Source of the DNA: Psilocybe cubensis
Lineage: Eukaryota
Direction of reading: 5' to 3'
Length of the DNA stretch: 64,000 bases
Assembly (NCBI GenBank): GCA_017499595.2
Contig: CM039008.1
Location: forward strand, 992,001-1,056,000
This document shows positions 10,771-34,096 of the stretch, one piece after another. Each line of letters begins with the position of its first letter. Positions within the stretch are counted from its first letter, which is position 1. A model generated the notes under the pieces. That model did no database searches. It was given only the letters and a program-made list of their open reading frames with translations, and was not told the DNA's origin. The position numbers and the translations under genes are program-made.

Positions 10771-11266
10771 GTGAAGGACCCTTTAGTTGTATATAAAAAA
10801 AAAAGGATTTTCTTCAAGAATTACACAAGGTCAGATTGATGCTTTGTTAACATGTACTTTAAACTGCTGATGTCCATGCTATGTATGAGAAGGCGGAAAA
10901 GGAGGAAGATGGAAAGACTATAACTGGTAATATTTGCAAGATCTGCCAGTCAGTTTTTTTATTTTGTGAGTAATGAATGAGTACTCATACATATCTTTTT
11001 AGAAGCAGGAAAGTTCCATTAGGTGCTTGCTTTATGACAGGCAGCAATAGTTCATTATGCAAGCATATTTCTTGGTTAGTTATTCTTTTTATATCTTTTC
11101 TCTAATTTAATGCTAATCTATGGATAGAAATTGGGAAACTCATGGAAAGAAGTACCTCAATGGGTGTAAAAAACTTAATATGGACCCTAATCCTATATAT
11201 TTGCCCAATTCAGCTAAATCAGATATAATAGCACATCTTTAAGGCCACTTGACATGTATGTGACAT

Positions 11267-12041
11267 TGAAGTATTGTGCGGTTTTGTAAGACTGGTAAAC
11301 CAATCTTTCTTACTCACACAGACCTTGTTCTTCACCAAATATATATTTGTAGAGGTATTAGAGAAGCTTTGTAGTTTGTTTAGAAGTTGTGCTACACTTG
11401 CCGCCCTAGGATCTCAATGTACTGAGTCAACTTATCAAGGTGTTCACAATAGTCCAAGTGACTCTCAAATTAACAAGACCCGACAGATTGTGCAAACAAC
11501 TCAATCAACCAAAATGCAATGATTCAATCTTTATTACACGACTTCAACTAACTCGCCAAAAATGGGTACAAACCCAAAACTACTGCCTGTTCTATACAAC
11601 GGGGGTTGCTTGCCTTTCCTCTCGCTGTTCCTCTCCCTTTTATCCTCTGACGCTTGGTCCATGCATATTGAGCTTGGTGCTGTTCTGATCCGTTTTTCCA
11701 TATGTGTTGAGCGGAACAGTTGAATTTTTATCCTTCACGCTGGGTGAGCTTTTCTCTTTTGTTTCACTCACGGTTATGCTTCCTAGCTTGCGCTCATGGC
11801 CGCGTTTCTTGGTTTACTGGTTGGTTTGAACTGGGTGACAGTCCCTTGCACCCCGAGTATAGCACCCTGGTCTGTCATCCTCCGTCTTACCGCCGCGTTC
11901 GAGTTTTATTTTGTGGCTTATATATACTTTGACACGTGCTTGTGCATGCCTCGTCACCTGACTTAGTCAAGGCTCGGCCCGTGTTCTAATTTTAGCTCTT
12001 GTTCGTGTTTTTCCAGGCTCATGCAACAGCGCTTCTCACCA
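11267..12041 (-). repeat. Gypsy 3' LTR
   Basis: Direct repeat of 20350-21120, preceded on the minus strand by a G-run PPT (12042-12049). Confidence 0.95.
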
Positions 12042-12265
12042 TCCCCCCCAACTAATAAAGCTTTGGTCCTGTTTCCCCGTTTTCATGTCTTATTCACCTC
12101 CCCCCTCGTCCGTTGTCTGAGACATATGGGGAGTGATCAAACCCATTCCTTTGGAGTAGGTGAGTTTGACTTGTGCATCCGCCTGTAGAGACTTTTTCAA
12201 CTCCTGTCTGCCTCAATGGTTTAAAGGTGAGTTCTGCTCCTTTTCTGTCCCTGCTTCTGGTTATC

Positions 12266-13581
12266 ATGTCTGTCTCTTCTAACACCATAGTTCTACAGCC
12301 GTTGGTTGCAGAGATCCACAATGACACGTTACTGACGCTTGGTCTTGCTTTGAACGATGGCAACCGCCTAGCGCCCATCTTTTCTCAATATGGCAAAATC
12401 CCACATGTCTTACGGGACCTTGACGAGAGTGTGCACAAGTTTGTGAGTATTAGCTGTTCAAAGTTACACCTAGCGTTTGACTTTCTCCTTTTCTTTAGGA
12501 GCATACCTGACCAGCAGACCAAGTTATGGTGGTGCAAGATGCCACTAATCTCTGTTTCGAACTGCGTACTGCTTATTTCAACATACAACGAGCTCTTTGT
12601 TTGGCCAACCCCGCGCTCCCCAAGATGCCTCAATCACCGGCGTTTGAAGTGGTGTTTGGTATTTGCAAGACCATCCAGCAACTTTGCCATGGCGCGACGC
12701 CCGAAGCTTTATCTACGGAAGTCAGTGCATCTTTGTCCGTCAAGCCTGGCAATGTCCTTTCTGTTGGAAACTCCTCCACTGGTGGCGGCGCCACTCCTGG
12801 AGAGCGCATGGAGCCTTCACGTCACAAGGTGAGGCCCAACTTTACACCTTTTAATTCCTTCTGCGTCAAACCACCACCGCCTTCCAGCGTTCCCGGCGAG
12901 TCATAAAGTCCAAGACTATTGTCGAATCCTCTGACATATGCCCTTTTTGTCTCTTTCTTCTCTTCTGGTGCTTAAGCGTTGTTTACTAATGTTTTTAGCA
13001 GGAGGATGAGGTAACACGATATGACCTCATATTATTTATCTTGCAACTCATTGACGGTATGCAGGCCATGTCCGTTGACAACGACGGCCCAAGTCAAATT
13101 GCAATCCCTACCACCATTGTGGACTCTTCTACCCCTGGTGCTTCTCAGCTGGGTTCTTCTTCTGTTTTGTCTAAGGGCAAGGGGACAAACAAGGTGTGTG
13201 TGCCTCACTAATTCGCATCTCCCTACCTGATTACCGTTCTTAGCGGCCTGAAACTGTTCTACTTGACTATGAAGCCGCCGGTGTATCATCCAGTGAGCCT
13301 GCATTGCAGAAGGCATGCCGATATGCCAACAAACGTGTGCGCTCCAAAGAGGCTAAGTCTAGTAAGTGCCACTCAATTTTTCGTCTCACCATTTGCCTAC
13401 TCATGCCACTTGGGCAGTGACTACACTGGGTTTCTCTCCCAAGAACTTGTCTGTAGACCATGCTTTGTATAATCTCTACAAGGAAAAAGCCGACTAGGAG
13501 TTCCACTTGTCGCATTTACACAACTAGAATGAGCTAACCTTGAAGGAGATTGCCAACTATACTCGCTTGAAAAAGGGCTGA
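12266..13581 (+). pseudogene. Antisense 7-exon gene inside the gypsy element (~325 aa, unknown function), with 3 nonsense changes and one mutated donor
   Basis: Exons 12266-12442, 12499-12828, 12888-12935, 12999-13010, 13065-13193, 13244-13361 and 13418-13581. Introns are 56, 59, 63, 54, 50 and 56 nt, and splicing keeps one frame. Confidence 0.75.
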
Positions 13582-13698
13582 GCGTACCTACGATAAGACA
13601 CCTTACTGCTTATGGGTTTTTATTCTAGGCCGTGATTCTTTCTTCGTGTAGATCTTAGTCATGGTTTTCCCATTGTGTAGCGACTTCAATGTCACCAT

Positions 13699-16600
13699 TT
13701 ATGCTGACTCGTCTTTGGAGCCCCAATTTGTTAGTGGGAGCCTGTCCCAATCCGGGGCAGCTGTGAATTCTTCTTTGCTGGATGCTTCTATGCGGTCTAA
13801 CCCTTCTGGAGAGGTATCTAGTATTTCTCCTATGTCATCAGGCAACGGTATGTGCTCACGCGCGTAGTATGGGACTACCCGGAATGCACCTACTTTATTC
13901 TGCCACACAGCCCCGTCCATTTTCGCCACAATATAGGCCCCTTCCTGAGTCCTCCTGACCACAATCATTGGGCCCAGGTAGCGTGGTGTCAGCTTACTGC
14001 TGTGTGATGACTCCACGGCTGTATTCCTGACCAGGACTAGGTCACCAGGGCTGAAGCTATAATTACGTATAACCACTTTGTGGTCCTCCTCGTACTTGTG
14101 CAACCATGCATATTTTTCCTTGTCTATTCTAGAGCGCATGCGATCCACATGCTCACGGTGCTTCATCAGTGCTTTAGCTTGGTAAGCTATGAGTTCTTCG
14201 ATACTCATCAATCCTTCTGGCAGATTAACTAACCAGGTTGCTTCCTGGACATCTAGCGGCAAAATAGGGTGCGCGGCTGTAACCAGGAAGTACAGAGAAC
14301 ACCCCAAGCGTCGCCAAATTGTTACACAATCTGCCCAAAACACAAAGGTGAGGAACCAATACCACTTCTTAATGTTTTCTTCGCCTAGCATCTTATACAA
14401 CATCTGTCAAATGTCAAAGTAATATTGTTCAATCTTTCTGTTTGCCTTTGAGTTATACGGTGAGATTTTAATCCCTGTGATATCATACTTCTCTCTAAGC
14501 CATTTGATTGCCACTACAAAAGGTGGTCCGTTATCCGTGACAATCGTGGTAAGACACCCCCCAGCGACATAGGATGTCCTCCCATAGCCACTGTCCTATC
14601 GCCCTACCTGTTTCTCGTACCAGGCCCCGCCCTTCTATCCAGGTCGTCAAGTTGTCTCTGCCATGCACCACCGTGTTGCATCCATTCAACGGAGGTGTCA
14701 TCCTCATACTGTCAGCGTGTAGTACTTGGAATATGGACGGTGTGAAGGTCATTATTGGCCTGAGTCGCAACAAGGTGTGTTGTCTCTGTTGGCACCTGTG
14801 ACACGTCTTCACATACCAGTTTATATCCTTTTCTATTAAGGGCCACTAGAATTGCTGGACCAGCATCTGGGTAGTCGCGTATACCCCTCTGTGCCTGGTG
14901 TGATCGTGTGCTGATTTCATCATGTACATTCTATCATTTTTGGGTACTACCAGTCGGTGCGTATTTTTGTAACTATGCAAGTACAACTGTTCCTCATGCT
15001 CAAAGAATCTGCGGGCATATCTTGTAAAGGTCTCCTGTCAATGCCCCGACCACCCTTTGCCTTTCCACTTTTTGTCTCGTAACCATACCTTGACCCACTC
15101 CAGGTCGTTATCCTGTTGTTTGGCAAGCGTAGTCCGGTGTTCTTCATTATAACGTGCCACCCTGTCTACTTTGGCTGGTAGCGCCAGGATGTTTGTGAAC
15201 TGTTCAAAAACCGTTCTTTGTTTGGTGGTTAGTTTTGTGTGCTGTTGATCCAATCATGCTTCTATAGCCTTCAATTCTTCTGCACGTAACTCATCTGCAC
15301 GACTAAGTTCTTTACTCAAGTCCTTGGTGGTCTTGGCAGCACCCGCCAAGCATCCTGTGTCTGGCACAATTTGATCGACGAAAGTCTCTATCGGTCTTGG
15401 CTTTTCACTTGGCGACAGACTTAGTGCGATATGTTGTAAGTACCCTCCTCTATTATCTATCAGAGGTTGGAATTTACTTATATCTTGCAATCCCCTCTCT
15501 GTGTCATCAAAGACTTCCGTAGGGGGCAACTTCCACTCCTCTACCTCATCACCCGCGGTTCCAGGTGGCTCATACCATGGCTATCCCTTCCTTCTTGACA
15601 ACCCGTCGGGACCAAAGGTCTTGCCTGCCTTATGCCTTAAGGTAAATTGATACAACATTATTTCCTCTATCCACCTATTGATTGTGGCATTAGGCATCAT
15701 ATCAGGATTTCGCAGCATACCATCAATGTATTGCGTGTCTGTCTTGACCACTAATTTTTGACACCCAATCAGATAAGCCCTGTTTTCTTTTAGTGCCCAC
15801 TTGAGCCCATATAACTCTCGCTTCGGTTGTGAATACCTTGACTCGTGTTTGTGCAAAGTTATCAAGCCAAATTTTACATAGTTGATGGTGCCATCCAAGT
15901 TTTCCTGATAAATATAGTACCCTATTGCAATGAACGAGGTGTTTACTGCCAATACAACCGCGTTTGCCACTTCATAATCTATATTTTTCAGACAGGGTGC
16001 GTTCTCGGCAGCTTGTTTTAACAATCCCATACTAGACTCTTGCTGTGGCCCCATTCAAACACTCTTTTCTTTTGGGTGAGTTTTTGCAAGTGATAAGCTT
16101 TCTCTGTGTACCCGGGTATGAAGGCTCTCAGTGTTCCACATGTACCTAGAAAGGCACGTATGTCCCCTATGTCTTTGCAAGGCGCCCATTCACTTATGGC
16201 CTTAACCCTTTCTACCATGGGTTTTCTTCCCTTGTACGTACATCTATGCCCGACTACTGGAATCTCTTTGGCGCATAGAACTGATTTGTAACCTGAGAAT
16301 GTCCTGCCCGCATATTTTATACGCTGGAGTACACGGTTCACGTTTCCTAAATGCTCCCATACAAATCGCCTGATGCCACTATTCTGTGGAATAGTTTCAA
16401 AGGTGCTCTCCACTTTGTATGGGGTTGCAGGTCCTTGGACGGCTACATCATCAATGTATGGTATCGTCACATTTGGTATCTCTTCCTGCAATATGTATGT
16501 TACATCGTCATGAAATATAAGTACTGAGTTCGTCCATCCCATTGGCAGGATCACCAGCCTCATGGCGCCAAATGGCGTTTGAAATGTAGTTATGTCTCTA

Positions 16601-17610
16601 AACTTTTCATCTATTTTTTGTTCATCATAGCCTACGTATAGGTCAAACATCCTGCCACATGCGCGTTTCGCAAAGTGCATAGTGAGGTCCTCCGTACCTG
16701 GCGGTAGGCCGGAATGGGCTATGGTTACTGCGTTTAGAGGTTCCAGGCTATGCACAATGCACAGGCTCTTCCCATCCTTCTTCAGCACTGTAAACCATCT
16801 TGAGCGGTAGGATGCATTTGAGGTTTCATAAACTCCTGACTCTTGCTTAGATTTTATTATTTTACAGACCTCCTCGTATAGTCCCTTCAGAATAGGTATG
16901 TTTTTATAAACCCAGGGTGTGTGCTCCACTGTGGGTATCTTAACTGGGGGAAAGAATTCCTCTTTGAAGTGCCCGCGTTTGCTGTTGTCCCAGGCAAATG
17001 CTTGGTTTTGTTGCATGATGATATTGTGTACCAGTTTCCTTTCTTCTGGCCACAGAAATTCATCTCCATGTACCTTGTCCATTGCCTCCATACGTTCTTG
17101 CGTATAACAGCGTGTTGGCACAAAGTCCGTAGGGTGCGGATTCAGCTGGGGCATGTCTGCCAGCAGATCTCCCTTGATTTGGCGCTTTATGCAGAATTCT
17201 TCCGGCAAGTCAGTATAAACTGGCCTTACTTTTTGCACTACTGGTTTATATCTCTTCTTGCCCAGATAGGTTGCCAGTTGCCTTGTTATTTTAGCCTTTT
17301 GAGTGCCTGTCTTTCGTGATACGTTATATGTTTTGCCTTGAAAGAACTGCTCCAATCTTTGCTTATCTTTTGGTTCCATTACTTTGTGTTCTAATACTTG
17401 GGATAGAAACGCCTCTCTGACCTCTTTCCTCAAGAACTTATCTGCTTTAATCTGGTATGCGTGAATTTTTAGCTCCTGTGTCTTTTTATTTAATTCAAAC
17501 ACGGCTGCCACCTCTCCGCCCTCGCCGATTTGGTTCAACAAGTTAGCCTTGAGGTTGTCCTCGAGGTGGATTAAAAACCCTCCGCCTTTTTCTTTCTCTT
17601 GTCTGTACAT
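13699..17610 (-). pseudogene. pol: Gypsy pol (RT, RNase H, integrase), broken by stops and frameshifts
   Basis: RT: SNASYRSRWF, FDLYVGY, LPMGWTNS, YIDD. RH: YSQPKRELYGL. IN: CHRCQ and KLTPRYLGPM (GPY/F-like). No chromodomain seen. Confidence 0.95.
17552..17580 (-). promoter_or_regulatory. Putative -1 ribosomal frameshift signal between gag-PR and RT
   Basis: G GGT TTT heptamer directly before the gag-PR TAA. The -1 frame continues GFLIHLED into pol. A GAGG-ACAA-CCTC hairpin lies ~8-11 nt downstream. Confidence 0.7.
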
Positions 17611-19990
17611 GTTTTTGGTCCTCTGCCTTGCTCAAAGATAGGAACCACTGCTTTCCTCCCAGTGTTAGGGTCCTCTATACAAATAGTGGCGGACCCATCA
17701 TGTTCTGTCTGCACGTTGGACCGCGTTAATGAGTCGAAGGTTCGTCCCAGCAGGATAGTATAGGCTGGGTTCCTAATAACATGGACCTGCAGATATATGG
17801 TGATGCCTCCAAAGGTGAATGGCACGTTCCTTGCAAGTCCTAACATGTGGTTAATAGTTTTATTTGCGCTTTCCATGTTGATGGTAACGTTGGGATCCCA
17901 GCTTAGACCTGTCCTAAGGGCTACTTCCTCAGACATGGATACTATTTGGGACCCGCTATCCATTATAGCTTTGATCTCTTCTACTCCATTGATTTTGGGC
18001 CAGAGAGACCGCAGTTGTTTGGTTTCTTTCCCTGTGTAGGTGGAGGTTGGTAACTTTTTCTCACCCTGCTGTAGTAACTGCAAGTAGAGGTTATTACCAA
18101 CTTTATATTGCTTTTGTGAGTCTAATTTATTGGTCAATATAAACACCGCTAACGGTTCTAATTGGGACGTTGATATTTTTATGGGAGTGACATCTTTTTG
18201 CAAGTGCTCTCGCACTTGTGGCGCACTGCCCAGTAGGTCTCTTACAGTCACTGTGACTAGTGCACTCATAGCTGTTTCATGTAGCTGCTGACTGATTATA
18301 ATGTTTTCAACTAGTGCCTTAGTACTATACACCGGTTTTGACTTGTAATCCGGCCCACGCATGTCTATTATGGGTCGCACAACTTCATTTAGTGGTTGTA
18401 CATCTATGTACGGTAGCTTGTTTTTATTTTTCTCTGTGTCTTCTTTATCTGCTTCTGCTTGTGCAGGTGTATTACCGTTCTCCGGGTTGTTTTGTTGTTG
18501 GAAATGCGGTGAGGTACATCGTGCCCCTTCATAACCCTTCCTCGAACTTAGGGAAAATTTCCCAGGGTAGGTTCTTCTTCTTCATCAAGAACTGGATGCC
18601 TCCCTAACACTGCCTCAAACGTGTCGTCCCCAAAGTCTTCTCAAAGGTTCATAAGGGATTTAGACAATTCATATTGTCTATGTAGTCGGTAGTGAGCAGC
18701 GTCCAAAGGTGAATCATTGTGACTCTGCCAGAAACTCAAAGTTTTGCTGACCGGTATAACCCCTGGTGTCCTATGCAAGCTTTCAACTACCTCTTTTCGT
18801 GACTTATTTCCCATTGGATGTACCTGGGACCCATCTGGTAATCTCACATACCCCTCGGCATTCTTGATGACCCATTTGTTATTTAAGTGCCGTCTCACAT
18901 GTGGGCAATCTATTATAATGTGGGTTTCCTCCTTACAGTAATGACACCCTGTGGTCTGGCTTATGCAAGCTTTGGGTGCAAAAGCTGTTTGAGACGTCTG
19001 TGGAAATGCCGCAGTTGGCACTGTATTTAACTGTAGACTATTTTTGAAGGTGAGCATCATGTTCTGGAATTCTAGCATCTGTTTATGCTGGCTTTCCTGT
19101 AACATTTTTAGCTCTAGGGCTCATTTATGCTCTTGGTTACTGATTACATCTGACAACTGAGATATTTGTTCTTCTAATTTGACATAATTCTTGTCCTTAG
19201 ATTCCGGAACCAGGTCTGAAGCTCTATACGCATGTGTAGTCTGGTAGGTTCCTTTCAGCAGTGCGTTAGAGTTCCATTTGGCTGCTTTTTCAGCTATGCT
19301 AATAGCGGCCTCAATGACATCTTCAAACTTATGCCGGTCTTCTCATCGGACCAGCTCTATCTCATTGGACTCTTCCGCTGCTTCGTCTTCAGCTGGCGGC
19401 TGATTCTAGGTTTTGACTACATTTGTAGTATCCAACTTGAAGTCCAGTTTCTGGCCTATTGGTCTGGCAAACTCCGTTGTCAAACAACCGATAAATCGCT
19501 CTACTAGATCACGGTTAGATAGTAGTGCGGGAGGCTGTAACAGTTTCCCAGCTTCTGCTCTAAAGGTTTGTACTAAAGCCATTAAGCCTAGGCTATCATG
19601 ACTTTTAATTTGGTTATTTCCACTATGTTTTTGGCATATTTTGTCCAAGGCATCGATAGAACCTCTATGTAGATTAACAGCTTCTGGGTACGACATGATC
19701 AGGTCCTTCCTGAATCGCTTCCAGGTGCCCTTCTGGAACATACTGAATGCACGCCATTCTGCCTCTGTAGTGGGGGATATGTAACAACACACAACTCGCT
19801 TCTTTTCTTTGTCAGTCTTGACTCTGTACTTTTTGAATAAGTCATCAAGCTGATCCAAGAAACGCAGTAGTTCCTCTGGCTTGTTCTTATCGAACTTTGG
19901 TGTGCCTTTATCGCCTAACAATGGTAAGTCTTTCGCCATTGTTTCTGTATTATTATGTTGTTCTAGAACTTGCTTGCTCTCTTCAGCCAA
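17571..19990 (-). pseudogene. gag: Gypsy gag-protease, disrupted
   Basis: Gag N-terminus TPKFDKNKPEELLRFL, zinc knuckle CHYCKEETHIIIDC, protease IMDSGSQIVSM..ILLGRTF. Confidence 0.9.
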
Positions 19991-20336
19991 TAAATAGACT
20001 GTTTCATCAGCAGCGAGTGGTTTGGTATTTGGTTCTAGTTGTTCGGTATGGGCACTACTCGACGCGGTGTCAAGGTCTACTTCGATTTTTTGTATTGCGT
20101 CTACGATAGACTGAAGTGGCTGTTTTTTATTTATTATGGACTTATGTGTCCCACGTTTAATAGGTTTTTGTTATTGTTTAAGTTTACGGGTCTCAGCTGC
20201 AGCGTAGGACTCTGCGGTTTTGTCACTGATTCCTGCTCACGCGCTTCGACGGGTTGCCACTGTCGCGTTTTTACAAACACTTAGTAAGCTTTTTGTGTTT
20301 TTATATTTTTGACTCTACTGACTAACCTCCCCTCGC

Positions 20337-20347
20337 GGTGGGCTCCA
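20337..20347 (-). promoter_or_regulatory. Gypsy primer-binding site (TGGAGCCCACC), possibly tRNA-Lys type
   Basis: Starts with TGG 2 nt after the 5' LTR. The tRNA assignment is an inference. Confidence 0.65.
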
Positions 20348-20349
20348 GA

Positions 20350-21120
20350 TGAAGTGTTGTGCGGTTTTGTAAGACTGGTAACCCAATCTTCCTTACTCAC
20401 ACAGACCTTGTTCTTCACCAAATATATATTTGTAGAGGTATTAGAGAAGCTTTGTAGTTTGTTTAGAAGTTGTGCTACACTTGCCGCCCTAGGATCTCAA
20501 TGTACTGAGTCAACTTATCAAGGTGTTCACAACAGTCCAAGTGACTCTTAAATTAACAAGATCCAACGGATTGCGCAAACAACTCAATTAATCAAAATAC
20601 AATGATTCAATCTTTATTACACGACTTCAATTAACTTGCCAAAAATGGGTACAAACCCGAAACTACCACCTGTTCTATACAACGGGGGTTGCTTGCCTTT
20701 CCTCTCGCTGTTCCTCTCCCTTTTATCCTCTGACGCTTGGTCCATGCATATTGAGCTTGGTGCTGTTCTGATCCGTTTTTCCATATGTGTTGAGCGGAAC
20801 AGTTGAATTTTTATCCCTCACGCTGGATGAGCTTTCCTCTTTTGTTTCACTCACTGTTATACTTCCTAGCTTGTGCTCATGGCCGCGTTTCTCAGTTTAC
20901 TGGTCGGTTTGAACTGGGTGACAGTCCCTTGCGCCCTGAGTATAGCACCCTGGTCTGTCATCCTCCATCTCACCGCCGCGTTTAAGTTTTATTTTGTGGC
21001 TTATACTTTGACGCGCGCTTGTGCATGCCTCATCACCTGACTTAGTCAAGGCTCGGCCCGTGTTCTAATTTTAGCTCTTGTTCATGTTTTTCCAGGCTCA
21101 CGCAACAGCACTTCTCATCA
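20350..21120 (-). repeat. Gypsy 5' LTR
   Basis: Direct repeat of 11267-12041, followed on the minus strand by the PBS. Confidence 0.95.
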
Positions 21121-24100
21121 ACATCTGTGCCCAATCCCAAGTGGACAAAGGAAGGCCTACTTGAGCATATCCTTTCATTTGTTGTTGAAGATGATCAAGT
21201 ATGTATTCTTTTGTTTTATGATTTTATACTTACGTTTATTGGTGTAGGCATTTCTGGTAATTGAAAAAGACTCTTTTCAAGCTCTTTTGAAATACTAGTG
21301 TCCTTCTATAAAGGATGATGACATTCCAAAATGTACAAAGTTGCTTGAGGAGGTCATAAAAAAGGCCAAGGTAGCAGTTAACTACTTAATTGGTCACTTC
21401 AAAGTATGTTCATTGCATTTTTACTTTATATAAGCCTATACTTATTAAATTTAGACTATTTCCAGTCAGATATTGATTACCTTTGATGCCTGGACCTCAA
21501 AGTCATATAATCCATATCTTGGTATTACTACTCATTATATTGATAGCCTGCTTGATAAGCCTCTTGATTGGGAGCTCAAATCCTGTGTCTTGGGCTTTGA
21601 GGAAATTAAAGGTAATCATGGTGGTGCCAATATAGCTGTTTTTGACCGCTTTGATATACAGAATAAGGTATATATTTTTATTTTCTTGTACATTTATTCT
21701 AATATTATGTTTAGATTGGTTGGGGGACAGTAGATAATGCTACTTCTAACAACAAAGCTATGCACTGTCTTCAATATGTTTTAAATACCATATTTTTATA
21801 ATTTTTAAGGAGCATGGAGCACACTATTCATCTAGCAACTAAAGCTTTTATTGAAATGGTTAATCCTTGCTTTTCTATACACTCAACCAAAAGAAATATT
21901 GTGTCCGCTTCTTTATGTTTTTTTATATACTCAATAAAAACAGGTACTGTGACAATGGAAGATAAAAATGAGATTGAGGAAGACGATGATTTAGACTAGA
22001 CTGCTAACTGGACATATCTTGATTCTGTTTCTGATAAAGAAGAGATTGATAAAGTTATTAATTTTCTTCCTAGTGATGTTCTAGGAAAAGTTCTAGCCTT
22101 GATTAACCAGGTGAGTATTTATTATTTTTTATTTACTTTTTCTAATATACATTTTAAATATGTCTTTCTCCACAAGCCAAGGCATACTTTGGCATTGTGT
22201 GTAAGGAGGAAGCACTTTCTCTACTTGAGTTAATCAAGTGGATTTATACCCAATGGGAATCTATGTTTGATTTAGTTGAACGGTTTCTTGAAAATGAATT
22301 AGTATGTATTTTGATTTCTTCTATTTCTTATTTTCACCTTCTTTTTAGGCAGTAAACAAGTTTGTACTTGTTGCGGATATGTCTAACCATATTCCAAAAT
22401 TGAAGAACAAAAAGTATGCTGACTTTTATCTTACTGAACATGAATGGGATCTCCTACAGCTAATGAAAGAAGTTTTGGAGGTGTGTGTACTTTTCATTGA
22501 TTTATACATAAATATTTATTGATTCTATTAGCATCCACATGCCGTCCAGTCTGAGTTCTCATCTGAGACTCAGACAACTTTGTGGAAAACTATTCCTATG
22601 CTTGAATGTCTTCAGGATAGTTGGGAAAATCTTTTAAAGATTTCCCAATTTGCTCCTATTCATGCTGCTATTCAAAAAGATCTAGATAAGCTTTGCAAAT
22701 GGTATTTGACCATTGATGAGAGTGATACTTATTTTATCTGTTTGGGTGAGCATTTTTATTTTACTCTTTTTTATTATTTTTTTAACTTTTCATGCTAGTA
22801 CTTCAACCTGACATTAAGCTTGCTTATTGCAAGAAAATGTGGGATGAAGAATATTATGACAAGAGATATAATGCTTTATGTGATATGGTGTGTATTTTAT
22901 TTCTTTATTATTAGTTATAACATTATCTGATTTACCTATAGTTTAACTTATATTATAAGCCATGCAAATTGGCTTTTCAGTCTTTACAATCATAAAACTC
23001 ATTTCAAGGTAAGTATTATTATTTATATTAATGGATTTTTTCTAATTTGTTTGGTATTTGAAAGAGAGAGTGCTATTAAGTCTAGCTATGCATCAGCTTG
23101 GATTCAAAACAGCATTCAATCCAAGGTCAATAGTCAAACGGCGGCTTAAAATCCACAAAAGGAGCTTTGTGATTATCTTGAAAGTGATCTAAAGCAAGTT
23201 TCTGATCCTATCAAGTAGTGGGGTGTAAGTAATTTGATAGTTTATTCTTTTATTTTATCTAATGCATTATTTAGTATCATTCAAAGGAATATCCTACCCT
23301 TTCACGGATTGCACACAACTATTTGGCCATTTAAGGCTCATCTATAGCAGCTGAACACTCTTTTCCAGCTAGTGCATTGACTAATGTTCTCAATTGTAAC
23401 CAGATAAATCCAGAACTCTTTGGGTATCTTCAAATTCTCAAAGATTGCTACAAATATAAACTAATAACTGCTTCTAATGAGACAAAGGCTCATGAGCCTA
23501 TGGATTGGGAATCTATTTAAATATCTTGTTATATTTTTAAAAATATTATCTTTAAAATTTTGTCAGTTCTATCAGTTCAAACCTGAACCAAACCAACTAA
23601 ACTGGTTCTAACAGTTTAGGTTCAGTTCAGTTCAGGTTCAGAAATTTTTTAGTGGGTTTAGTTCTGGTTTGGCAAAAATTGGGCTCCGAACCAAATTGAA
23701 CCAAACTTTGGCATCCCTATCCCTTAAAGTGAAGTAATTGGCAAAGTAGCCTAACACATAGTAAGAAGGACTAAGCACCAATTGTACATAGAATTATATA
23801 GAATAACAGTGGCTGAAGAGTGTACATGCATAGATGCAAATAAGAGGAATTAGAGATGTAAACATTGACACAAGGTTTTACCATTGTTAAAAAATAATAG
23901 TAAACAAATTGTTTAAGAAGACATAAGGTAGATGTCATCCATAATTGAATAATGTTACGTGCGCTAAGGTGACAGTCCCAAAATAGCAATCCAGCCTAAA
24001 TTTTACAAAAAAAAACATGGTTTTGGAGAGAATAAATATATTTTCTGCAAAAATTGAACCAACAAAAGGAAGATATAGTTAAACAATGTGCTAATCTCTA

Positions 24101-24544
24101 TTTTCTTGGCAAACAAAGTTGTTTGGAGAAGTTATTTTCCAAACAAGGTTGCAGTACTTGTAAGGTGGGCCAGTGCTATCACATGGCATATACAAGGCCT
24201 TATTAGATAAAAACCTATTTAATACAAATTCAAAAGTTAAATTCAAAAGAAAAAATTCAAGTTGAATACATAAAATTAATCACACATACTATTAATAATA
24301 TTTCCAACAACAGATTGATTGATACTAATAAAATTTTAATTTTGAATACCAGATGTGAACACATATTACATATGTTTCTATAACAGACCAAAAATATAAA
24401 TCATGGTTAGAGCCTAAAAAGACACCTTCTACGTGATTCGAAATCACGACTTTAAAAGCAGAATCTGATGAGACGCTTACTAACTAAACCATACTTGAAC
24501 ATTGAGCAGGGCAAAACTTGATAATATGTAGTTTTGCTAACTAC

Positions 24545-26260
24545 TGTCAACAGAAAAAAAAAAAGAAAAGACTATCGAGCAGGCCAGCAGGGGCATCACC
24601 AACACTACGGGGAAGATGCAAAGGTGACAAAGCGGAGACAGATGGGAGGGGGGTGCGATGAGAGACACGACAAAGGCAAGGGATGGGCAAAGGCGCTATC
24701 ATACCCTAATCCTGATTGGAGATGAGATGTTCATTTTGGATCTACACACGACGCCCTCAACCCAAGCAGTCATTCTTTCCATAAGTCATCCACACATCTT
24801 ATCTTATCAACACTTGTCACATGGGAGCCACGTTATTCCGGATCATGTCACTTTGTCGGATCATCAAGGCTATGCGACGGATCAGTCAACCATCAAACTG
24901 CACAGCTTTCTACACTGCCTTGCACAGCCGGACTGTCAACTCTATTTTTATCAATTCAATGGTCTTACTCAGCATCAGGCTGCGGATTACTCATTCCAAC
25001 TTATTTTTGGTTTGTCTTACTCATTCTTTTGTGTTTATTTATATCTTTTCTATTGTCTGTTGCGCTTTTATTGTCTTTGTCTTATCAATCTTCTATGCTT
25101 TCTGACTCATCCTTGCTTCTTTTATCTAATCTGTATTACCATTCACCTTCGTCATACACTTCTTTCTTACTCATCCTATTCATTTCTTATCTGTCGTAGT
25201 GTCGATATCGACATGTCTTATTGTTCTTGCTTATTGTTACACTTGCGTAGCCTCATTCTTGACACTTTGTACAGTATATGACTTGGTTTTCAGTAGCTCA
25301 GATTGGTATTTCGTTCACGTAGCTTTTAGTATAAAAGCTGTAGTAGAATTACATGAAATGATAGGAAAGTTACACCCAGTCCCCACTTTCTTCAAAGCAA
25401 GTCAATTTTCATCCAAGTCAAGTCAATTTCAAGTCAATCCACATCGATTCATTTCAATTCCAAGTTCAAGTTCAAGCCAAGCCCAAACCCAAGTCCAATT
25501 CAGTCATCAGTTCCACCCTCCGTTGAGACCAAGTTTACTTCCATTCATCCGAAGCCATCTTGCTTTCCATTAAGAGAGGATTTCATCCGAGACCAGTCAT
25601 CCTCCTCATCCAACGCCTCTTCTTCTTAGCGTTGAATATCCAACTTCTATCCAGACCTCCAGTACTTCCCTACTTCCTCTCCTCCATTCAATCCGTCACC
25701 GCTCCTACTCTTTCTACATCTTCCAACCATTGCCGTTAGGAGTGTATTCAAGACATCCTTTCCCTCCGTCAACTCATCTGGAGCGATTTCATTCGAGACA
25801 GACTTAGTCTTTCATCCTCGATTCAGTCAATACTCCTGCGACGTATAGCTTCATTCCAAGCTTCAGAAAGATTGTCAATTTAAAGACACTTTCACCATTC
25901 TCCAAGATTCAGCCCGTTAACGACATTCCAACTCCTAGTCATCTTCTCATCTCCCCTCGGAATGTTCCCCACTCACTTCAGACAACCCCTCTAAGATTCA
26001 CATTTATTGATTTCTCATACGCATTCTACGCATCTTCTTCACGCTTTCCATATATACCCGCCATCCAATTCCACGGTTCCATCCCATTTTCGGAAGGCTT
26101 ATTTACTATCGTACCCAGATGACCCGGTTATCCTCTTCTTACTATTTCGCTTTTGTTACCCTTCATAATCCACACCATCCTAATCTACTTAAATCCTAGG
26201 CAGCGTCCTCCCTTAAGAAACTTAGGAGAAGGTTTCGTCCTATCTAGTCTGGACCACTCT
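24545..26260 (+). mobile_element. Possible LTR-like retroelement remnant, boundaries uncertain
   Basis: G-rich tract followed by TGAGAG at 24659, TATAAAAG at ~25330, CAAGT(T)C repeats, CpG retained. No TSD or partner LTR found. Confidence 0.3.
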
Positions 26261-26349
26261 TTCCCTGGGGTTTGTGTTTGTTGGATTATATATAGTTTAT
26301 AACCAATCACAAACTTCGATCTTCAGCGCAAGAGGGTGAGGGCGAACAA

Positions 26350-27971
26350 ACCAGCAGTGCTCCATGCTGCTGGTCATTGAGGGAGGCGGGGCATGAGGCA
26401 GAGACAACATGAACCAGCAGCATGCTCCATGCTGCTGGTTGTCGATTGAGGCAGGGGTGGCAGGAACGCAGACCAGCAGTGCGCAGCTGCTGGTTGTCAA
26501 CGGTCGTCGAAGGAGACGGGGGCGGCGGGATAGACCGCTGGTCATTGAAGGAAGTGGGAGCGTTGAAGAGACAAACCAGCAATATGTGCTACTGGTTGTC
26601 AATGAAGGCAGGGATAGGGACAGAGGCAACAAGCGTGCTGCTGATTCTTGAGAACGGTGGGGGGATGGCCCCTGGCAGAATCAAGTCGATGCCGGGTATG
26701 TCATGGGAGGAAGTTGACGTGACGGAGGCGGCAGAAGTGAGAACAGAAGTCAATATGGGGCTTGTTATGGAGGGTGGTCAAAATCTTGCTCCTCTTCAGT
26801 GGTGAAGCTAGGTATAAATTGAAACTGTAAAATTTAAAACCAGAAACGCAGGAACTTACCTTTGGAGTGGTGCAGATTGCGGGGCAAGCAGCAGAAGCAT
26901 GCTGCTTGTCATCTGGGTGGGTGTCAATATATCGGAGGCGGTGGAGGGCGGAGGTGGACAGTGGATAACAGAGTAGACAGCAAACGGCAGGGCCGACAGT
27001 GGATGTGAGTGAGACGAGCAGCCCTATTGCTGCTCATTGTTGGTTTGAGAATGGAGCTGATGAGGAAGAGAAAAGACAAACAACATGCTGTTGTTCATCT
27101 TTGAGTAGAGATTGCTGTTTGACAAGTTGAAGTCAGAGGTGGCGGCAGCAACAACACAGACCAGTAGAATGGACCTGCTGGTCGTTGATGGAGCAAAGGG
27201 CAAGGCGGAGATGACACAAACCAGCAGCGCCAACTGCTGGTTTCATTGATGGGTGCAGGAATGGTGCCAGGTGCAACGCAGACTAGCAGCATCATGCTGC
27301 TGGTCGTCAAGGAAGGCAGGGGCAGCAGAAACACAGACCAGCAGTACCATGCTACTGGTCATTGATGAAGGCCAGGGCGGAGGTGAGAAGAAACAAACCA
27401 GCAGTTTTGTGCTGCTGGTTTTGTCAAGGGAGACAGATACAGAGATAGAGATGACACGAACCAGCAGCTTTGAGCTGCTGGTTGTTAAGGGAAGGACGGC
27501 GGCAGACAAAGAACCAACAGCTCCTCCATAGTTGTTGGCTTGTCAAAGTAGGAGGGGACAATGACGCAGACCAGCAGCGCACAGCTGCTGGTTGTCGATG
27601 GTGGCAGGGATGAGGGTGTAGATGACACAAACCAGCAACTTCGTATTGCTAGATTTGTTGAGGAGATAGGTGCACAAAGAACGGGGGCAAGGCGACGGGG
27701 ACAATACAGACTAGTAGCGCAAGGCTACTGGTCGTCGATGGAGGGAAAAGGTGGAGGCGAAGGCGGAGATGTGTCAATGGAGGAAGGGTGTGGCTATCAA
27801 GGGAGGCTGCGGTAGGGTTATTAAAGGATGTGGGTGCGATGGCGACACTGACCAAGCTACTAGTCGTCAAAAATAAACCAGGACAAACTGCAGTGCTGGT
27901 TCTGTTTGTCGTGCTGTAGGTAAGGCGTTGGGAGGCGGAGACGAGCAGCAAACTTAAAGTTACTGCTCGTT
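26350..27971. repeat. Array of ~20 palindromic units (ACCAGCAG-N~7-CTGCTGGT(T/C)GTC) with variable purine-rich spacers
   Basis: Clear units start at 26350, 26413, 26472, 26575, 27160, 27220, 27282, 27337, 27397, 27460, 27513, 27570, 27631 and 27710, plus degenerate ones. The period is mostly 53-63 nt. Confidence 0.9.
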
Positions 27972-30044
27972 ATCGCATGTGTACGAAATGGGGGATAGGC
28001 CGGGATGTCAAGTTGAATGGCATGACATGAGGGATACCGTAAAAAGTGGGTAGTGATGTCAAGGGTCTACTGCAGTTGTGAACAGTATGCGGCCAAAAAA
28101 ACATGACATAACAAGCAGCTACAGCAGCGCTGCACTGCTCATCAAATCGAGGGGATTACTTTGGCGGAGATGGCAAGACCGTCGGTAGTAGCAACAACGA
28201 CTTGTTGCGCATTGTAATGGGTTGTCGACACACTGCTCATCAACGGTATACTGTTATGGGTTGCTGTATGGATTGAGCTGAGTATGCAAAACATAAAACT
28301 ATGAAATGTACTAGTTGGGCCTCCCCTACATGGATTCCCCCTTGCACTATCCGACATCCCTTGCCTTCTTGTCCATTGTTCAGGTTTGCAGGTTGTCGTC
28401 ACTGTTATGCTGTGAAGAGGTTGAGATGAAAAGATGAGATAGAAAGACAGGACGCATCAGCAAAATCACGGGAAGAGTCACGTAAGCACTGAGTACCGTC
28501 CTAGTACTGGTTGCACATGCCGGTATACCCGCGCGGCAGAACCCGTGCTACCTTCTATATTGGGAATGCCATTTGCAAATTTTTGTTCTGGTATCAAAAT
28601 GGTGTACATTTTGATTGCAGGACTTGCGGTATATAGTAGACGAGGCCCTTTTTACAAAGGCCTTGTAATCTATAAACAGACATGTTGTATCGCTCTTACA
28701 TCTTCAACTTTTACCTCAATTACTCAAGCATAATCCACATTTTTATTTAATGGCACGTCCAAAAGTGAAATCCTATCAATATTTAGAACCTTCAAGGAAC
28801 AGTGGGCAGAAACACATCTAAAAAAACAAAAAATACTGGCAGACAAGCAGTATAATGGGCAACAAAAAAGTACCAGGGCCATAGATTACTACCAAGCAGC
28901 ATTATTAAAGGGCTTGAAAGATGTAGTGTTGTCTAGTAGTCAATATGAGAGTCAAATAAGAGTACAAAAGACAGTTTAACATGAGCTCTCCAACATTATT
29001 GGTAGACCCATGGTATTGACATTTAAATAATGTTACAGTAGAATCTTTTTTGAAAATAACTCTTTTAGTTCCCCTCCAATTAGGATAAAAATTTCAGATC
29101 TAATTGTTACATATAAACAAAACAGATTGTCAAAGCATTTTCTCTTTTTTCTTACTCAATACTCTATAATGTTGCATTTACTTTGGTTTTTAGGGCACTT
29201 TCCATATTGGGACCAGAAAATATCACTATTCTATCACTTCACTTGACATTATTCCATTATGGATGATATCTACCTTATCAATCAGGAAGAGACATAGAAT
29301 AAGCTGTATAGTCATGTTTGGCAAAAGGTAGAAAAGCAAGCAAATAAGTTATTCAATAATACTTGCTTACTATATATAGGCATTTTTGACCAAGGGGAAC
29401 TTTACCTATAGCAAGGCCATAACAAGGTAGATTTCTTTTGCAGTTCTTATTGGCTGCTCTGGAAATGTTAGATGTTGTAAAGCAATTGGCTTCAGGACAC
29501 TCCAGAGCAACCCTAGAATCAGCTGCAGATTGGTGGGTAGCATGATTCAGTTTCAAGTTGTTAGGTATATTGTCTTCCAAAGTGGGTAGATTAAACTAGT
29601 AAAAATGCTGGTACATCAACTAAACATATAGAAAATTACAATGTATCACAAACCAATACAAGGATTTTTTAGCATTACAAATCCAAATAATCTTTGGGGG
29701 CCGGTTTACAATATCAAGAAATAATCTTCTTAGGTTTACAAAATAGTCACAATTATTTAAATTTTTTTATTCATTTGAGTATAGTCTTGCACCTCCGCCT
29801 GCACTTTCCGTCTCATCTTATTGTCTGCCTCCATCTATCGGATCATATCAATTTCACCCTACATGGCGATTCCATCATCATTGTTATTGTTGTTGTGGAC
29901 GGGTTGTTGTCATTATTGTCATGGGCTGGTTGTTGTTAATGACAACAACAATATTAATTTAAAAAAAAAGATTGTGGAAAATTTGCATGTACCATAATCA
30001 ACTAAATTTTTTGGTTAAGCATTGTCTTTTTTTTACTGAAGTCT

Positions 30045-33105: not shown

Positions 33106-34096
33106 CACCAGATGCACAGTTAAATAATCCATGACAGAATATGTAATTTTTACTTAAAATATGTCAACATTTTATTGTATAATCAGCAGCTGATTACACA
33201 AGAATTATATTGTTAGAGATTGAAAAAAATAACACTCATTTATCCATAGATTATGTAGACATTATATATCTATAAAAGGATTATATATCCTTTAAACATT
33301 ATTTGTATTCACTAATATAACAATTATGCAAGAGCTATACAAATATAAAATGTAACAAAGCATGGCATACCTTTGTTGTGGTATTTTTGATGTTTGTTAT
33401 TGGAGTTCTAAATTGAAATTCCCAAATTGGCATATAAAGATGTTAACCAAGCTTGGCAGAAAATAGTCTGCCTACAAAATTGATATCACAAAAATTTTTG
33501 CAAGAAGACATTATTTTCCGGCCTTGGCACATTTATATTCTGCTATAGAAAATCTTTGTCTTCTTGTGGAATTGATGGCAAAATTGAGGAATTGATAGCA
33601 AAATTGATGGCTTGTCTTTGTGTCATTAATTCCACAAGAGAACAAAGGTTTTCCATAGCAGAACATAAATATGCCAAGGCCAGAAAATAATGTTCTCTTG
33701 CAGAAATTTTTGTGACATCAATTTTGCAGGCGGAAAATAGTCTGCCAAGCTTGGCCAACATCTTTACACGCTAATTTGGGAATTTTAATTTAGAACTCCA
33801 ATGACAAATATCAAAAATGCCACAACAAAGGTATACCATGCTTTGTTACATTTTATATTTGTATAGCTCTTGCATAATTGTTATATTAGTGAATACAAAT
33901 AATGTTTAAAGGATATGTAATCCTTTTATAGATATATAATGTTTACATAATCTATGGATAAATGAGTGTTATTTTTTTCAATCTCCAACAATATAATTCT
34001 TGTGTAATCAGCTGTTGATTATGCAATAAAATGTCAACATATTTTTAAGTAAAAATTACATATTCTATTACAGATTATCTAACCGTGCATCTGGTG
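33106..34096. mobile_element. Non-autonomous foldback DNA transposon (CACTA/CMC-like) with ~475-bp TIRs and 3-bp TSD ACA
   Basis: ACA|CACCAGATGCAC...GTGCATCTGGTG|ACA. Arms are ~33106-33580 and ~33620-34096, with no coding capacity. Confidence 0.85.

What the first reader, a model, noticed from the sequence alone, without database searches (positions are those of the whole stretch)
26350..27971. Repeat-spacer array of conserved hairpins with compensatory changes in a eukaryote
Seen: about 20 units of ACCAGCAG-loop-CTGCTGGT, often extended by GACAC..TGTC, separated by ~30-nt spacers that differ from one another. Spacings in the best block are 60, 62, 55, 60, 63, 53, 57, 61 and 79 nt, so frame is not preserved. 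Stems covary while loops are free: ACTAGTAGC/GCTACTGGT at 27710, CCAACAGCT/AGTTGTTGG at 27514 and AGCAA/TTGCT at 27634. CpG is retained here, unlike in the flanking DNA. Inference: the palindrome or RNA structure, not the sequence or a protein, is being maintained. Candidates are a multi-hairpin ncRNA or small-RNA precursor, or phased binding sites for a dimeric protein such as a transposase in a large element's subterminal region.
Basis: partly seen in the sequence, partly recalled or inferred. Interest (0 to 1): 0.78.

Follow-up and report, generated by a model that had tools for sequence, protein, structure and literature searches.

The report
Decayed palindromic tandem repeat among transposons
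About twenty diverged 60-base tandem repeats, each built round the same short palindrome, lie in transposon-rich eukaryotic DNA; they look like an ordinary non-coding minisatellite, not an RNA gene or a repeat-spacer array.

Summary
The hairpins are real: 7 exact ACCAGCAG-loop-CTGCTGGT sites against 0 in 100 shuffles. A covariance model finds 19 same-strand units, all within 26340-27981. It is not a repeat-spacer array, because the "spacers" align as diverged copies of one ~60-nt unit. Covariation does not exceed shuffles. G.T and A.C mismatches are equal, 14 each, so nothing favours an RNA on either strand. No frame is kept, and I found no ORF over 130 aa, no Pfam domain and no protein relatives.

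Read depth shows the array is single-copy. It lies on a 4.5-kb segment (24157-28668) that is absent from a diverged copy of its flanks. That segment is nested in a TA-flanked inverted-repeat element, and a ~55x-copy 1.63-kb element (24697-26325) has inserted at the array's left edge.

One oddity remains. The arm sequences (0.81-0.88 identity, almost no transversions) are much better kept than the flanks (0.5-0.66) or loops (~0.3).

Verdict: a decaying palindrome-bearing minisatellite in transposon debris, a new member of a known kind. A DNA binding-site array is not excluded.

The parts
26340..27981 (+). Array of ~60-nt head-to-tail units, each with the palindrome ACCAGCAG-loop-CTGCTGGT. There are 19 covariance-model matches on this strand. 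The loop is 7 nt in 9 of the 14 best units.
27150..27770 (+). Best-kept block: 10 consecutive units. Arm identity is 0.86/0.81, flanks 0.64-0.66, loops 0.35.
27982..28270 (+). Degenerate tail of the array, with weak palindromes at 28120-28142 and 28191-28208.
24560..24692 (+). Purine-rich (75% purine, 54% GC) continuation of the array region on the far side of the transposon insertion. No recognisable hairpin unit.
24697..26325 (.). High-copy (~55x baseline depth) 1629-nt interspersed element inserted at the array's left edge. It has a 4-nt duplication GCGC (24693-24696 and 26326-26329). Reads and contigs lacking it join 24692 to 26326.
24157..28668 (.). 4.5-kb carrier segment that is absent from a ~10%-diverged copy of its flanks. 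It lies between A and T, shows no target duplication, and starts and ends with CTTGTAA. Its left part (24157-24559) is AT-rich and ends in an A-run.
28640..28666 (+). Hairpin with an 11-pair stem (one bulge), 2 nt from the right end of the carrier segment.
26808..26859 (-). 52-nt AT-rich stretch (31% GC, in 51-58% GC surroundings). On the minus strand it reads GTAAGT...TAG, so it is intron-like. It is unproven, as I saw no RNA data.
23926..23961 (+). Left terminal inverted repeat of the outer, old, CpG-poor element, preceded by TA.
29240..29275 (-). Right terminal inverted repeat of the outer element (33 of 37 bases match the left one), followed by TA.

Best explanation
The feature is a non-coding, single-copy, decaying tandem repeat (a minisatellite of ~60-nt units with a purine-rich strand). 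Its founder unit happened to contain a 9-10-bp inverted repeat. All units, including the so-called spacers, descend from that founder by tandem duplication (slippage or unequal exchange; this step is inferred). The palindrome is therefore inherited, not re-invented by compensatory change. Later divergence is mostly transitions at CpG and CpA/TpG sites. The array rides on a 4.5-kb present/absent segment nested in an old TA-flanked inverted-repeat element, and a young high-copy element has split its left edge. Shown here: unit homology, lack of covariation, lack of coding, copy number and the nesting. Inferred: the duplication mechanism. Also inferred: that the better-kept arms reflect how the array grew or homogenised (palindromes as slippage or exchange hot spots) and not a cellular function.
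For: The units align end to end and all point one way. Covariation does not exceed shuffles, even on a structure-fitted alignment. Among 198 stem cells, 154 are Watson-Crick, 14 G.T, 14 A.C and 16 other, which is the 1:1 ratio expected from unselected transitions. Arm differences from consensus are 15 transitions and 1 transversion in 224 sites. Read-versus-window differences are about 10:1 transitions. About half the units, those outside 26340-26620 and 27150-27770, have decayed arms. No ORF exceeds 130 aa. None of 58 ORFs reaches a Pfam cut-off. No credible protein relatives were found. No Rfam family matches. Depth is ~29 in the array against ~45 in the flanks and ~1600 in the inserted element. 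The segment-absent joint and the insertion-absent joint are both seen. The outer inverted repeats are seen. Precedents exist for tandem repeats with a palindrome in each unit inside non-autonomous transposons (PMC3879986, abstract) and for hairpin-forming fungal minisatellites (PMC4560493, passages).
Against: The arms are much better kept than the rest of the unit. Pairwise identity is 0.88/0.85 with transversions 0-0.018, against 0.52-0.64 in the flanks and 0.29-0.35 in the loops. The contrast holds in an unselected block of 10 consecutive units. Plain neutral decay of whole-unit copies does not predict this, and CpG decay explains the transition excess in the flanks but not the transversions. 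In run X6, two versions of array pieces differ by 17-18 letters in 251-275 with 0 gaps. The array is therefore not length-hypervariable, as classical minisatellites are. CpG obs/exp of 0.61 shows it has escaped the decay seen in its flanks, either by youth or by protection.
Confidence: 0.55

Rival explanations
1. The feature is an array of sequence-specific palindromic DNA sites. The two arms (half-sites ACCAGCAG in inverted orientation, about 7 nt apart) would be recognised by a dimeric DNA-binding protein, either of a mobile element (a cis-acting region of a non-autonomous element) or of the host. Selection would keep the arm sequence while loops and linkers drift.
For: The arm sequence itself, not just the pairing, is kept: 0.81-0.88 identity, with 1 transversion in 224 sites. 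Loops are at random level and flanks are intermediate. The loop length of 7 is kept in 9 of 14 units. G.T = A.C fits a DNA-level constraint better than an RNA one. The array lies on a discrete present/absent segment inside transposon DNA.
Against: About half of the units have decayed arms. The array is single-copy by depth. No transposase or other DNA-binding ORF lies in the segment. The array fills the middle of its carrier and is not subterminal. No candidate protein is known. The 14 best units were picked partly by their arms, which is an ascertainment bias; answers this only in part.
Confidence: 0.17
2. The feature is a multi-hairpin non-coding RNA or small-RNA precursor. The array would be transcribed and each stem-loop processed or used as a structural module.
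For: Both strands fold far better than shuffles: z = -5.5 on the plus strand and -6.6 on the minus strand for 27140-27770. There is an intron-like 52-nt AT-rich stretch with GTAAGT...TAG on the minus strand. A few changes occur on both sides of a pair, for example A-U 7 / G-C 5 at the pair just outside the arms.
Against: Covariation is not above shuffles. G.U-compatible and A.C mismatches are equal, 14 and 14, so neither strand is favoured. The stems are only 8-13 bp, which from recall is short for Dicer-type precursors. No Rfam match was found. The fold z-scores follow trivially from repeated palindromes, and the minimum-energy folds pair arms of different units.
Confidence: 0.07
3. The feature is the wreck of a protein-coding repeat. 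On the plus strand a 20-residue unit reads ..TQTSSxxLLVVDGG + linker. Variation falls on every third base, as if it was once under purifying selection.
For: Column entropy by codon position is 0.45 / 0.53 / 0.94 in 14 units and 0.70 / 0.71 / 1.12 in 18 units. The variable second-half codons change conservatively (L/L, V/I, D/N/E/K, read). With the inserted element removed, an ATG at 24642 runs in frame into the first TSS.
Against: The third-base pattern is equally explained by mutation context, since every variable arm position is a CpA/TpG or CpG site (read). Third positions coincide on the two strands, so the pattern names no strand. Only 5 of 11 unit periods are multiples of 3. Yet the two X6 versions differ by 17-18 substitutions with 0 gaps, so indels are rare and the frame breaks are old while the arms stayed intact. 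Stops occur in all frames. phmmer against 1.84 billion representatives gave only 2 weak hits (E 1e-5 and 4e-4), both unrelated repeat proteins. The minus-frame search gave none of 12 candidates. No Pfam domain was found.
Confidence: 0.07
4. The carrier segment 24157-28668 is a non-autonomous rolling-circle (Helitron/HINE-like) element whose internal module is the tandem array. The palindromes would derive from, or serve as, termination-type hairpins.
For: The segment is absent from a diverged copy of its flanks, lies between A and T and has no target duplication. Its layout is a left module ending in an A-rich run, then a central tandem array, then a right module with a hairpin 2 nt from the end. 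This resembles the HINE layout described in PMC7492417 (passages read). Two X7 contigs start matching at 24156 with unlike sequence before it (table 7).
Against: The ends are CT.. and ..GTAA, not the 5'-TC and CTRR-3' recalled for Helitrons. The only subterminal inverted match (11 nt) is reached by 14 of 300 shuffles and is itself a palindrome. Depth is single-copy. No Rep/helicase ORF was seen in the window. The 'empty' copy is ~10% diverged, so the junction could instead be an old deletion.
Confidence: 0.1

Closest known systems
Tandem-repeat-containing non-autonomous DNA transposons (DTC84/pearl-type MITEs; PMC3879986, abstract and outline read)
   Same: A short array of diverged core repeats is embedded between non-repetitive flanking modules of a mobile element. 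Each repeat harbours a palindrome, which the authors propose as a hot spot for changes in array length.
   Different: Here the array is much longer (~20-25 units, ~1.9 kb, against up to 5 repeats). The carrier is single-copy by depth. No AA target duplication and no clear short inverted repeats are seen at the carrier ends. The organism is a transposon-rich eukaryote with fungus-like short introns, not a bivalve.
HINE: Helentron-associated interspersed elements carrying satellite-like arrays (PMC7492417, passages read)
   Same: The layout matches: left module with a microsatellite, central tandem array, right module with a palindrome near the 3' end, and no target-site duplication.
   Different: Subterminal inverted repeats are not demonstrable. 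Canonical rolling-circle termini are absent. The copy number is about 1. No Rep/helicase partner was seen.
Hairpin-forming minisatellites of fungal rDNA spacers (PMC4560493, passages read)
   Same: These are tandem units of tens of nucleotides, each predicted to fold into a stem-loop, and are speculated to give small RNAs.
   Different: This is not in rDNA: no rRNA gene was found in the window. The units are longer (~60 nt against 23/39 nt) and far more diverged. No length variation was seen between the two X6 versions.
Classical GC-rich minisatellites (recalled general knowledge)
   Same: Units are 10-100 bp, lie head to tail, show strong purine/pyrimidine strand asymmetry (62% purine) and are non-coding.
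   Different: The units are only ~50-65% alike outside the palindrome, so Tandem Repeats Finder misses the array. There is no evidence of hypervariable length.
CRISPR-type repeat-spacer arrays
   Same: Both have a regularly spaced palindromic repeat of similar period.
   Different: The 'spacers' are homologous to each other. The repeats are not identical. This is a eukaryotic transposon context and there are no cas-like ORFs. It is not a member.

Membership tests
Repeat-spacer (CRISPR-like) array | Spacers are unrelated to one another | tested here: not met
   The units align across their full ~60 nt, and the 10-14 nt on each side of the palindrome are 0.52-0.66 identical.
Diverged tandem repeat / minisatellite | Head-to-tail units of 10-100 bp, all in one orientation, homologous over the whole unit | tested here: met
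   There are 14 nhmmer hits at E <= 1e-5 and 19 covariance-model hits, all on the plus strand, with periods of 53-79 nt. Minus-strand hits cover only the palindrome.
Diverged tandem repeat / minisatellite | Detected as a periodic array by a tandem-repeat finder | tested here: not met
   TRF at minimum score 30 gives no ~60-nt period in 24000-30000. The units fall below its ~70% likeness limit.
Diverged tandem repeat / minisatellite | Length polymorphism between alleles or individuals | tested here: inconclusive
   X6 holds two versions of 26771-27045 and 27539-27789 that differ by 17-18 letters with 0 gaps. A possible 36-nt skip (27422->27459) rests on contigs with only 25 letters on one side.
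Structured RNA (multi-hairpin ncRNA / small-RNA precursor) | Compensatory base-pair changes beyond chance | tested here: not met
   43/500 and 51/500 shuffles reach the observed percentage paired. 96/500 and 39/500 reach the number of double-changed pairs.
Structured RNA (multi-hairpin ncRNA / small-RNA precursor) | Strand-specific tolerance of G.U over A.C | tested here: not met
   14 G.T against 14 A.C in 198 stem cells.
Structured RNA (multi-hairpin ncRNA / small-RNA precursor) | Match to a curated RNA family | tested here: not met
   Rfam gathering-threshold search gives only a tRNA at 6434-6505. The E-value mode on 23900-29300 gives one chance hit at E 0.48.
Structured RNA (multi-hairpin ncRNA / small-RNA precursor) | Transcription and processing | not testable with these tools
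   No RNA run that holds the stretch is listed.
Protein-coding repeat | Open frame with unit lengths in multiples of three | tested here: not met
   The longest ORF is 130 aa. 5 of 11 neighbour periods are multiples of 3.
Protein-coding repeat | Protein relatives or a domain | tested here: not met
   Plus frame: 2 spurious hits among 1.84 billion representatives. Minus frame: 0 of 12 candidates, near lengths only. None of 58 ORFs reaches a Pfam cut-off.
Helitron / HINE-type rolling-circle element (the carrier segment) | Insertion without target duplication, present/absent between copies | tested here: met
   The joint 24156->28711 carries 39 letters between; by eye these equal 28669-28707 at 33/39. 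It is seen in 8 X14 reads and one X7 contig. No duplicated flank is present.
Helitron / HINE-type rolling-circle element (the carrier segment) | Canonical termini (5'-TC, CTRR-3'; recalled) or subterminal inverted repeats | tested here: not met
   The ends read CTTGTAAGG.. and ..GGCCTTGTAA. The best inverted match of the ends is reached by 14 of 300 shuffles.
Helitron / HINE-type rolling-circle element (the carrier segment) | 3' subterminal palindrome | tested here: met
   Hairpin at 28640-28666, 2 nt from the end.
Helitron / HINE-type rolling-circle element (the carrier segment) | Multiple dispersed copies | tested here: inconclusive
   Depth is single-copy at >= 85% likeness, but two X7 contigs begin at 24156 with unlike upstream letters. 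No genome is held to search.
TA-flanked inverted-repeat DNA transposon (the outer element, 23926-29275) | Terminal inverted repeats flanked by a duplicated TA (Tc1/mariner-type target, recalled) | tested here: met
   33 of 37 bases match between the ends (BLAST E 2e-8), with TA on both sides. No transposase lies inside.

The most novel reading that the evidence does not exclude
The palindrome arms are held by selection as recognition sites for a dimeric DNA-binding protein. About twenty phased sites would sit on a duplication-free, Helitron/HINE-like mobile segment. That would make this a cis-acting binding array of a so far undescribed tandem-array-carrying element in this eukaryote. The arm-versus-loop conservation contrast and the present/absent segment without a target duplication leave this open.
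Probability: 0.12. Interest if true: 0.55.

Novelty: new member of a known kind. Interest (0 to 1): 0.24.

Why it matters
As it stands, this matters little. It is one more tandem repeat born in transposon debris, and it is useful mainly as a caution. A palindrome inherited by all copies of a repeat looks like conserved hairpins with compensatory changes until the units are aligned and tested against shuffles. A three-base rhythm of variation can come from CpG/CpA mutation context as well as from coding. The locus would matter more if the well-kept arms proved to be protein-binding sites or processing signals. In that case it would be a compact natural array of about twenty phased sites on a mobile segment, and the system could be tested directly.

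Tried and rejected
1. Whole-genome search for further arrays was not possible, because no genome is held for this window.
3. Expression could not be assessed. No RNA holder is listed among 17 runs; the two 'RNA?' runs of the same species label hold next to none of the words. This is no evidence either way.
4. Pattern scans for hairpin-spacer-hairpin gave 41 loci in metagenome contigs and 32 in prokaryote genome contigs, each with a single exact match, mostly in GC-rich bacterial DNA. With loose matching, at most 3 hairpin-like sites occur per locus. The one with 3 (L029) is an unrelated 29-nt palindromic repeat. These were rejected as chance.
5. The CRISPR-like reading was rejected.
6. An rDNA-spacer origin was rejected, because no rRNA was found in the window.
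7. G-quadruplex spacers were rejected: there are 0 canonical G3 motifs, and the relaxed G2 count of 17 lies within the range of shuffles (maximum 18).
8. Protein searches found nothing credible. The plus-frame 93-aa ORF gave 2 spurious repeat-protein hits. The minus-frame 99-aa ORF gave none, although only proteins of 54-174 aa were searched.
9. Subterminal inverted repeats at the carrier segment's ends are not above shuffles.
10. I considered whether the 4.5-kb segment is an original part of the outer inverted-repeat element with the short copy being a deletion derivative. This is not resolved. The CpG contrast (0.61 in the array against 0.13-0.34 in the outer arms) favours a later insertion.
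12. I opened no supplementary file of any paper.
Full report
WHAT IS THERE

The sequence between 26340 and about 28270 is G+A-rich on the plus strand: 52% GC and 62% purine, against a window mean of 40% GC. It is studded with short perfect or near-perfect palindromes.

- The exact pattern ACCAGCAG-N(3-14)-CTGCTGGT occurs 7 times, all between 26350 and 27592. It occurs 0 times in 100 dinucleotide-preserving shuffles of the window.
- The repeat finder lists 23 short inverted pairs in 26200-28300.
- My own scan finds 16 perfect hairpins with stems of at least 6 bp in 26200-28400. Most are variants of the same palindrome.

The raw observation is therefore real and far above chance.

THE "SPACERS" ARE NOT SPACERS

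I cut the region at the hairpins and aligned the pieces. The units are homologous over their whole length. The consensus is roughly GACACAG-ACCAGCAG-(7-nt loop)-CTGCTGGT-YGTCGATGGAGG, followed by a purine-rich tail of 11-37 nt.

- A profile HMM of the unit finds 14 strong copies (E <= 1e-5), all on the plus strand. There are weaker partial copies at 26537, 26634, 26889, 27772, 27791, 27853 and 28122. Minus-strand hits cover only the palindrome.
- A covariance model built from 18 units finds 33 matches at E <= 1 in the whole 64-kb window. Nineteen are on the plus strand, all within 26340-27981. Fourteen are mirror hits of the palindrome core on the minus strand. None lies elsewhere.
- Tandem Repeats Finder sees no ~60-nt period, because the units are too diverged.

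This is a diverged head-to-tail tandem repeat with a palindromic core, not a repeat-spacer array.

COVARIATION

I tested a 14-pair structure on the 18-unit alignment: the arms, one pair outside them, two pairs inside, and the outer GAC/GTC.

| Measure | 18-unit alignment | Structure-fitted, 16 units |
|---|---|---|
| Cells paired, observed vs shuffles | 81.3% vs 79.5 +/- 1.2% (43/500 reach it) | 85.3% vs 83.5% (51/500) |
| Pairs changed on both sides | 6 vs 4.5 (96/500) | 6 vs 3.8 (39/500) |
| Covariation score | 0.225 vs 0.185 (12/500) | 0.239 vs 0.207 (32/500) |

The second alignment was fitted to the structure by the covariance model, which biases it towards pairing. Given the tool's stated false-positive behaviour for related sequences, neither result is significant.

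Among 198 stem cells, 154 are Watson-Crick, 14 G.T, 14 A.C and 16 other. The 1:1 ratio of G.T to A.C is what unselected transitions give. An RNA hairpin on either strand should tolerate G.U and not A.C.

Both strands fold better than shuffles (z = -5.5 and -6.6 for 27140-27770). That follows trivially from repeated palindromes, and the minimum-energy folds pair arms of different units. No Rfam family matches.

CODING?

Variation in the conserved part of the unit has a striking three-base rhythm. Mean column entropy by codon position is 0.45 / 0.53 / 0.94 in the 14 best units. In one plus-strand frame the unit reads TQTSSxxLLVVDGG. I do not think this shows coding, for five reasons.

1. All variable arm positions are CpA/TpG or CpG sites. 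The ancestral unit (ACC AGC AGC ... CTG CTG GTC GTC GAT) carries these sites every third base, so a transition-biased decay gives the same rhythm. Read-versus-window differences are about 10:1 transitions.
2. The third positions of the best plus frame and the best minus frame coincide, so the rhythm names no strand.
3. Only 5 of 11 neighbour periods are multiples of three, and all six frames have stops. The longest ORF is 130 aa.
4. In run X6 two versions of array pieces differ by 17-18 substitutions in 251-275 nt with no gap. Indels are therefore rare here, and the many frame breaks must be old while the arms stayed intact.
5. Searches found no protein. phmmer with the 93-aa plus-frame ORF against 1.84 billion representatives gave two weak hits, both to unrelated repeat proteins. 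The 99-aa minus-frame ORF gave none of 12 candidates, near lengths only. None of 58 ORFs of at least 45 aa in 23900-29300 reaches a Pfam cut-off; the best E-value is 0.019.

CONTEXT

The window is transposon-rich eukaryotic DNA.

- A gypsy LTR retrotransposon lies at 11267-21120.
- A hAT-like pseudogene with short AT-rich introns lies at ~21121-23520 (read).
- Several copia copies lie from 43.9 kb to 62.2 kb.

Laying one raw-read DNA run and three contig sets on 23500-29500 resolved the neighbourhood.

(a) 24697-26325 has about 1600x depth, against about 29x in the array and about 45x in the outer flanks. Its edges are sharp, and hundreds of reads run on into unlike sequence there. A joint 24692->26326 in X14 (5 reads), X7 and X6 shows copies lacking it. 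It is flanked by GCGC on both sides. It is a young high-copy element that inserted into the left edge of the purine-rich region, which continues at 24560-24692.

(b) The array itself is at baseline depth, so it is single-copy at >= 85% likeness. It is not a dispersed repeat.

(c) A joint 24156->28711 is seen in 8 X14 reads and one X7 contig, with 39 letters between. By eye those 39 letters equal 28669-28707 at 33 of 39, and all six differences are transitions. This shows a ~10%-diverged copy of the flanks that lacks the whole 4.5-kb segment 24157-28668.

(d) That segment sits inside an older element with 37-nt terminal inverted repeats (33/37 identical; 23926-23961 and 29240-29275), flanked by TA.

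CpG obs/exp is 0.61 in the array and 0.55-0.78 in the young retroelements. It is 0.13-0.34 in the outer arms and 0.13-0.17 in the other old flanks. The contrast suggests the carrier segment is younger than its surroundings, or is protected.

THE CARRIER SEGMENT

The segment has these features:

- It lies between an A and a T, with no target duplication.
- It begins and ends with CTTGTAA.
- It has an AT-rich left module ending in an A-run.
- It has the central array.
- It has a right module with an 11-pair hairpin 2 nt from the end.

This layout resembles tandem-repeat-carrying non-autonomous elements: DTC84-type MITEs, whose core repeats each carry a palindrome (PMC3879986, abstract), and Helentron-derived HINEs (PMC7492417, passages). 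But the canonical rolling-circle ends (recalled) are absent, the best inverted match between the ends is reached by 14 of 300 shuffles, and the depth is single-copy. I keep this as a lead at about 10%.

WHAT REMAINS ODD

The arms are much better kept than anything else in the unit.

| Part of unit | Pairwise identity | Transversions |
|---|---|---|
| Arms (14 units) | 0.88 and 0.85 | 0 and 0.018 |
| Adjoining flanks | 0.52-0.64 | 0.07-0.17 |
| Loops | 0.29-0.35 | 0.35-0.40 |

Against the consensus, the arms show 15 transitions and 1 transversion in 224 sites. The contrast holds in an unselected block of 10 consecutive units, 27150-27770: arms 0.86/0.81, flanks 0.64-0.66, loops 0.35. So it is not only an effect of picking units by their arms. 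However, roughly half the units outside the two good blocks have decayed arms.

Because the same arm sequence is kept in all good units, and not just complementarity, a sequence-specific DNA-level constraint fits better than RNA structure. One possibility is a palindromic protein-binding site. The other is some arm-centred homogenising or proliferating process. I could not test either.

VERDICT

The most likely reading (about 0.55) is a non-coding, single-copy, decaying minisatellite whose founder unit carried an inverted repeat. It was born on or captured by a mobile segment, and is now nested in and interrupted by other transposons. The rivals are:

- a palindromic binding-site array (0.17);
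- the internal array of a Helitron/HINE-like element (0.10; this concerns the carrier and overlaps the main reading);
- a hairpin or small-RNA precursor (0.07);
- a wrecked coding repeat (0.07).

The kind is known: tandem repeats with palindromic units in transposon-derived DNA, and hairpin-forming fungal minisatellites (PMC4560493, passages). I rate it a new member of a known kind, of low to moderate interest. The unexplained arm conservation is the one thread worth pulling.

LIMITS

- No genome of the organism could be searched.
- No RNA data were available.
- Only the best-supported rows of the read-laying output could be seen.
- No paper supplements were opened.
- The Helitron termini, the Tc1/mariner TA target, CpG-deamination decay and the stem length needed by Dicer-type precursors are recalled knowledge, not tool results.

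Noticed in passing
24697-26325: A 1629-nt C/T-rich element at about 55x baseline read depth in X14. It has sharp edges and a 4-nt duplication GCGC, and it is absent in some reads and contigs (joint 24692->26326). It is probably a young solo LTR or other high-copy interspersed repeat. It has no match elsewhere in the window.
   Followed up: partly
23926-29275: An old, CpG-poor element with 37-nt terminal inverted repeats (33/37 identical) flanked by TA, and no transposase ORF. A diverged, shorter copy exists elsewhere in the genome (contig in X7).
   Followed up: partly
21121-23520: A hAT-like transposase pseudogene with short AT-rich introns and in-frame stops, directly after the gypsy 3' LTR. 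This was read from the sequence only and was not searched.
   Followed up: no
11267-21120: A gypsy-type LTR retrotransposon on the minus strand (RVT_1, aspartyl protease, Tf2-1 SH3 domain), with ~775-nt LTRs that are 94-95% alike.
   Followed up: partly
8585-10589 and 10557-10796: A 400-nt inverted repeat at 98% (arms 8585-8984 and 10180-10579) abuts a GAA/GAG-rich microsatellite. A loose end of an X10 contig that breaks at 25246 matches the start of that microsatellite region.
   Followed up: no
33106-34096: A foldback-like structure: 437-nt inverted arms (91%) only 34 nt apart, inside 54-nt outer inverted repeats.
   Followed up: no
43883-62216: At least three copia-type copies in both orientations (gag, integrase, RVT_2). 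Two of them have long open frames (942 and 983 aa).
   Followed up: no
6434-6505: An Rfam tRNA match (33.8 bits, gathering score 29) that ARAGORN does not call. It may be a degenerate or tRNA-derived sequence.
   Followed up: no
26808-26859 (minus strand): A 52-nt AT-rich island (31% GC) inside the GC-rich array, reading GTAAGT...TAG on the minus strand. It is intron-like, and would imply a minus-strand transcript through the array if it is real.
   Followed up: partly
27160-27182: The loop of this unit (AATGGAC) contains the reverse complement of the CCAT core shared by the loops of five other units (26350, 26413, 27282, 27337, 27513). It may be a loop inversion between the arms. The loops fall into about three sequence groups.
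   Followed up: no
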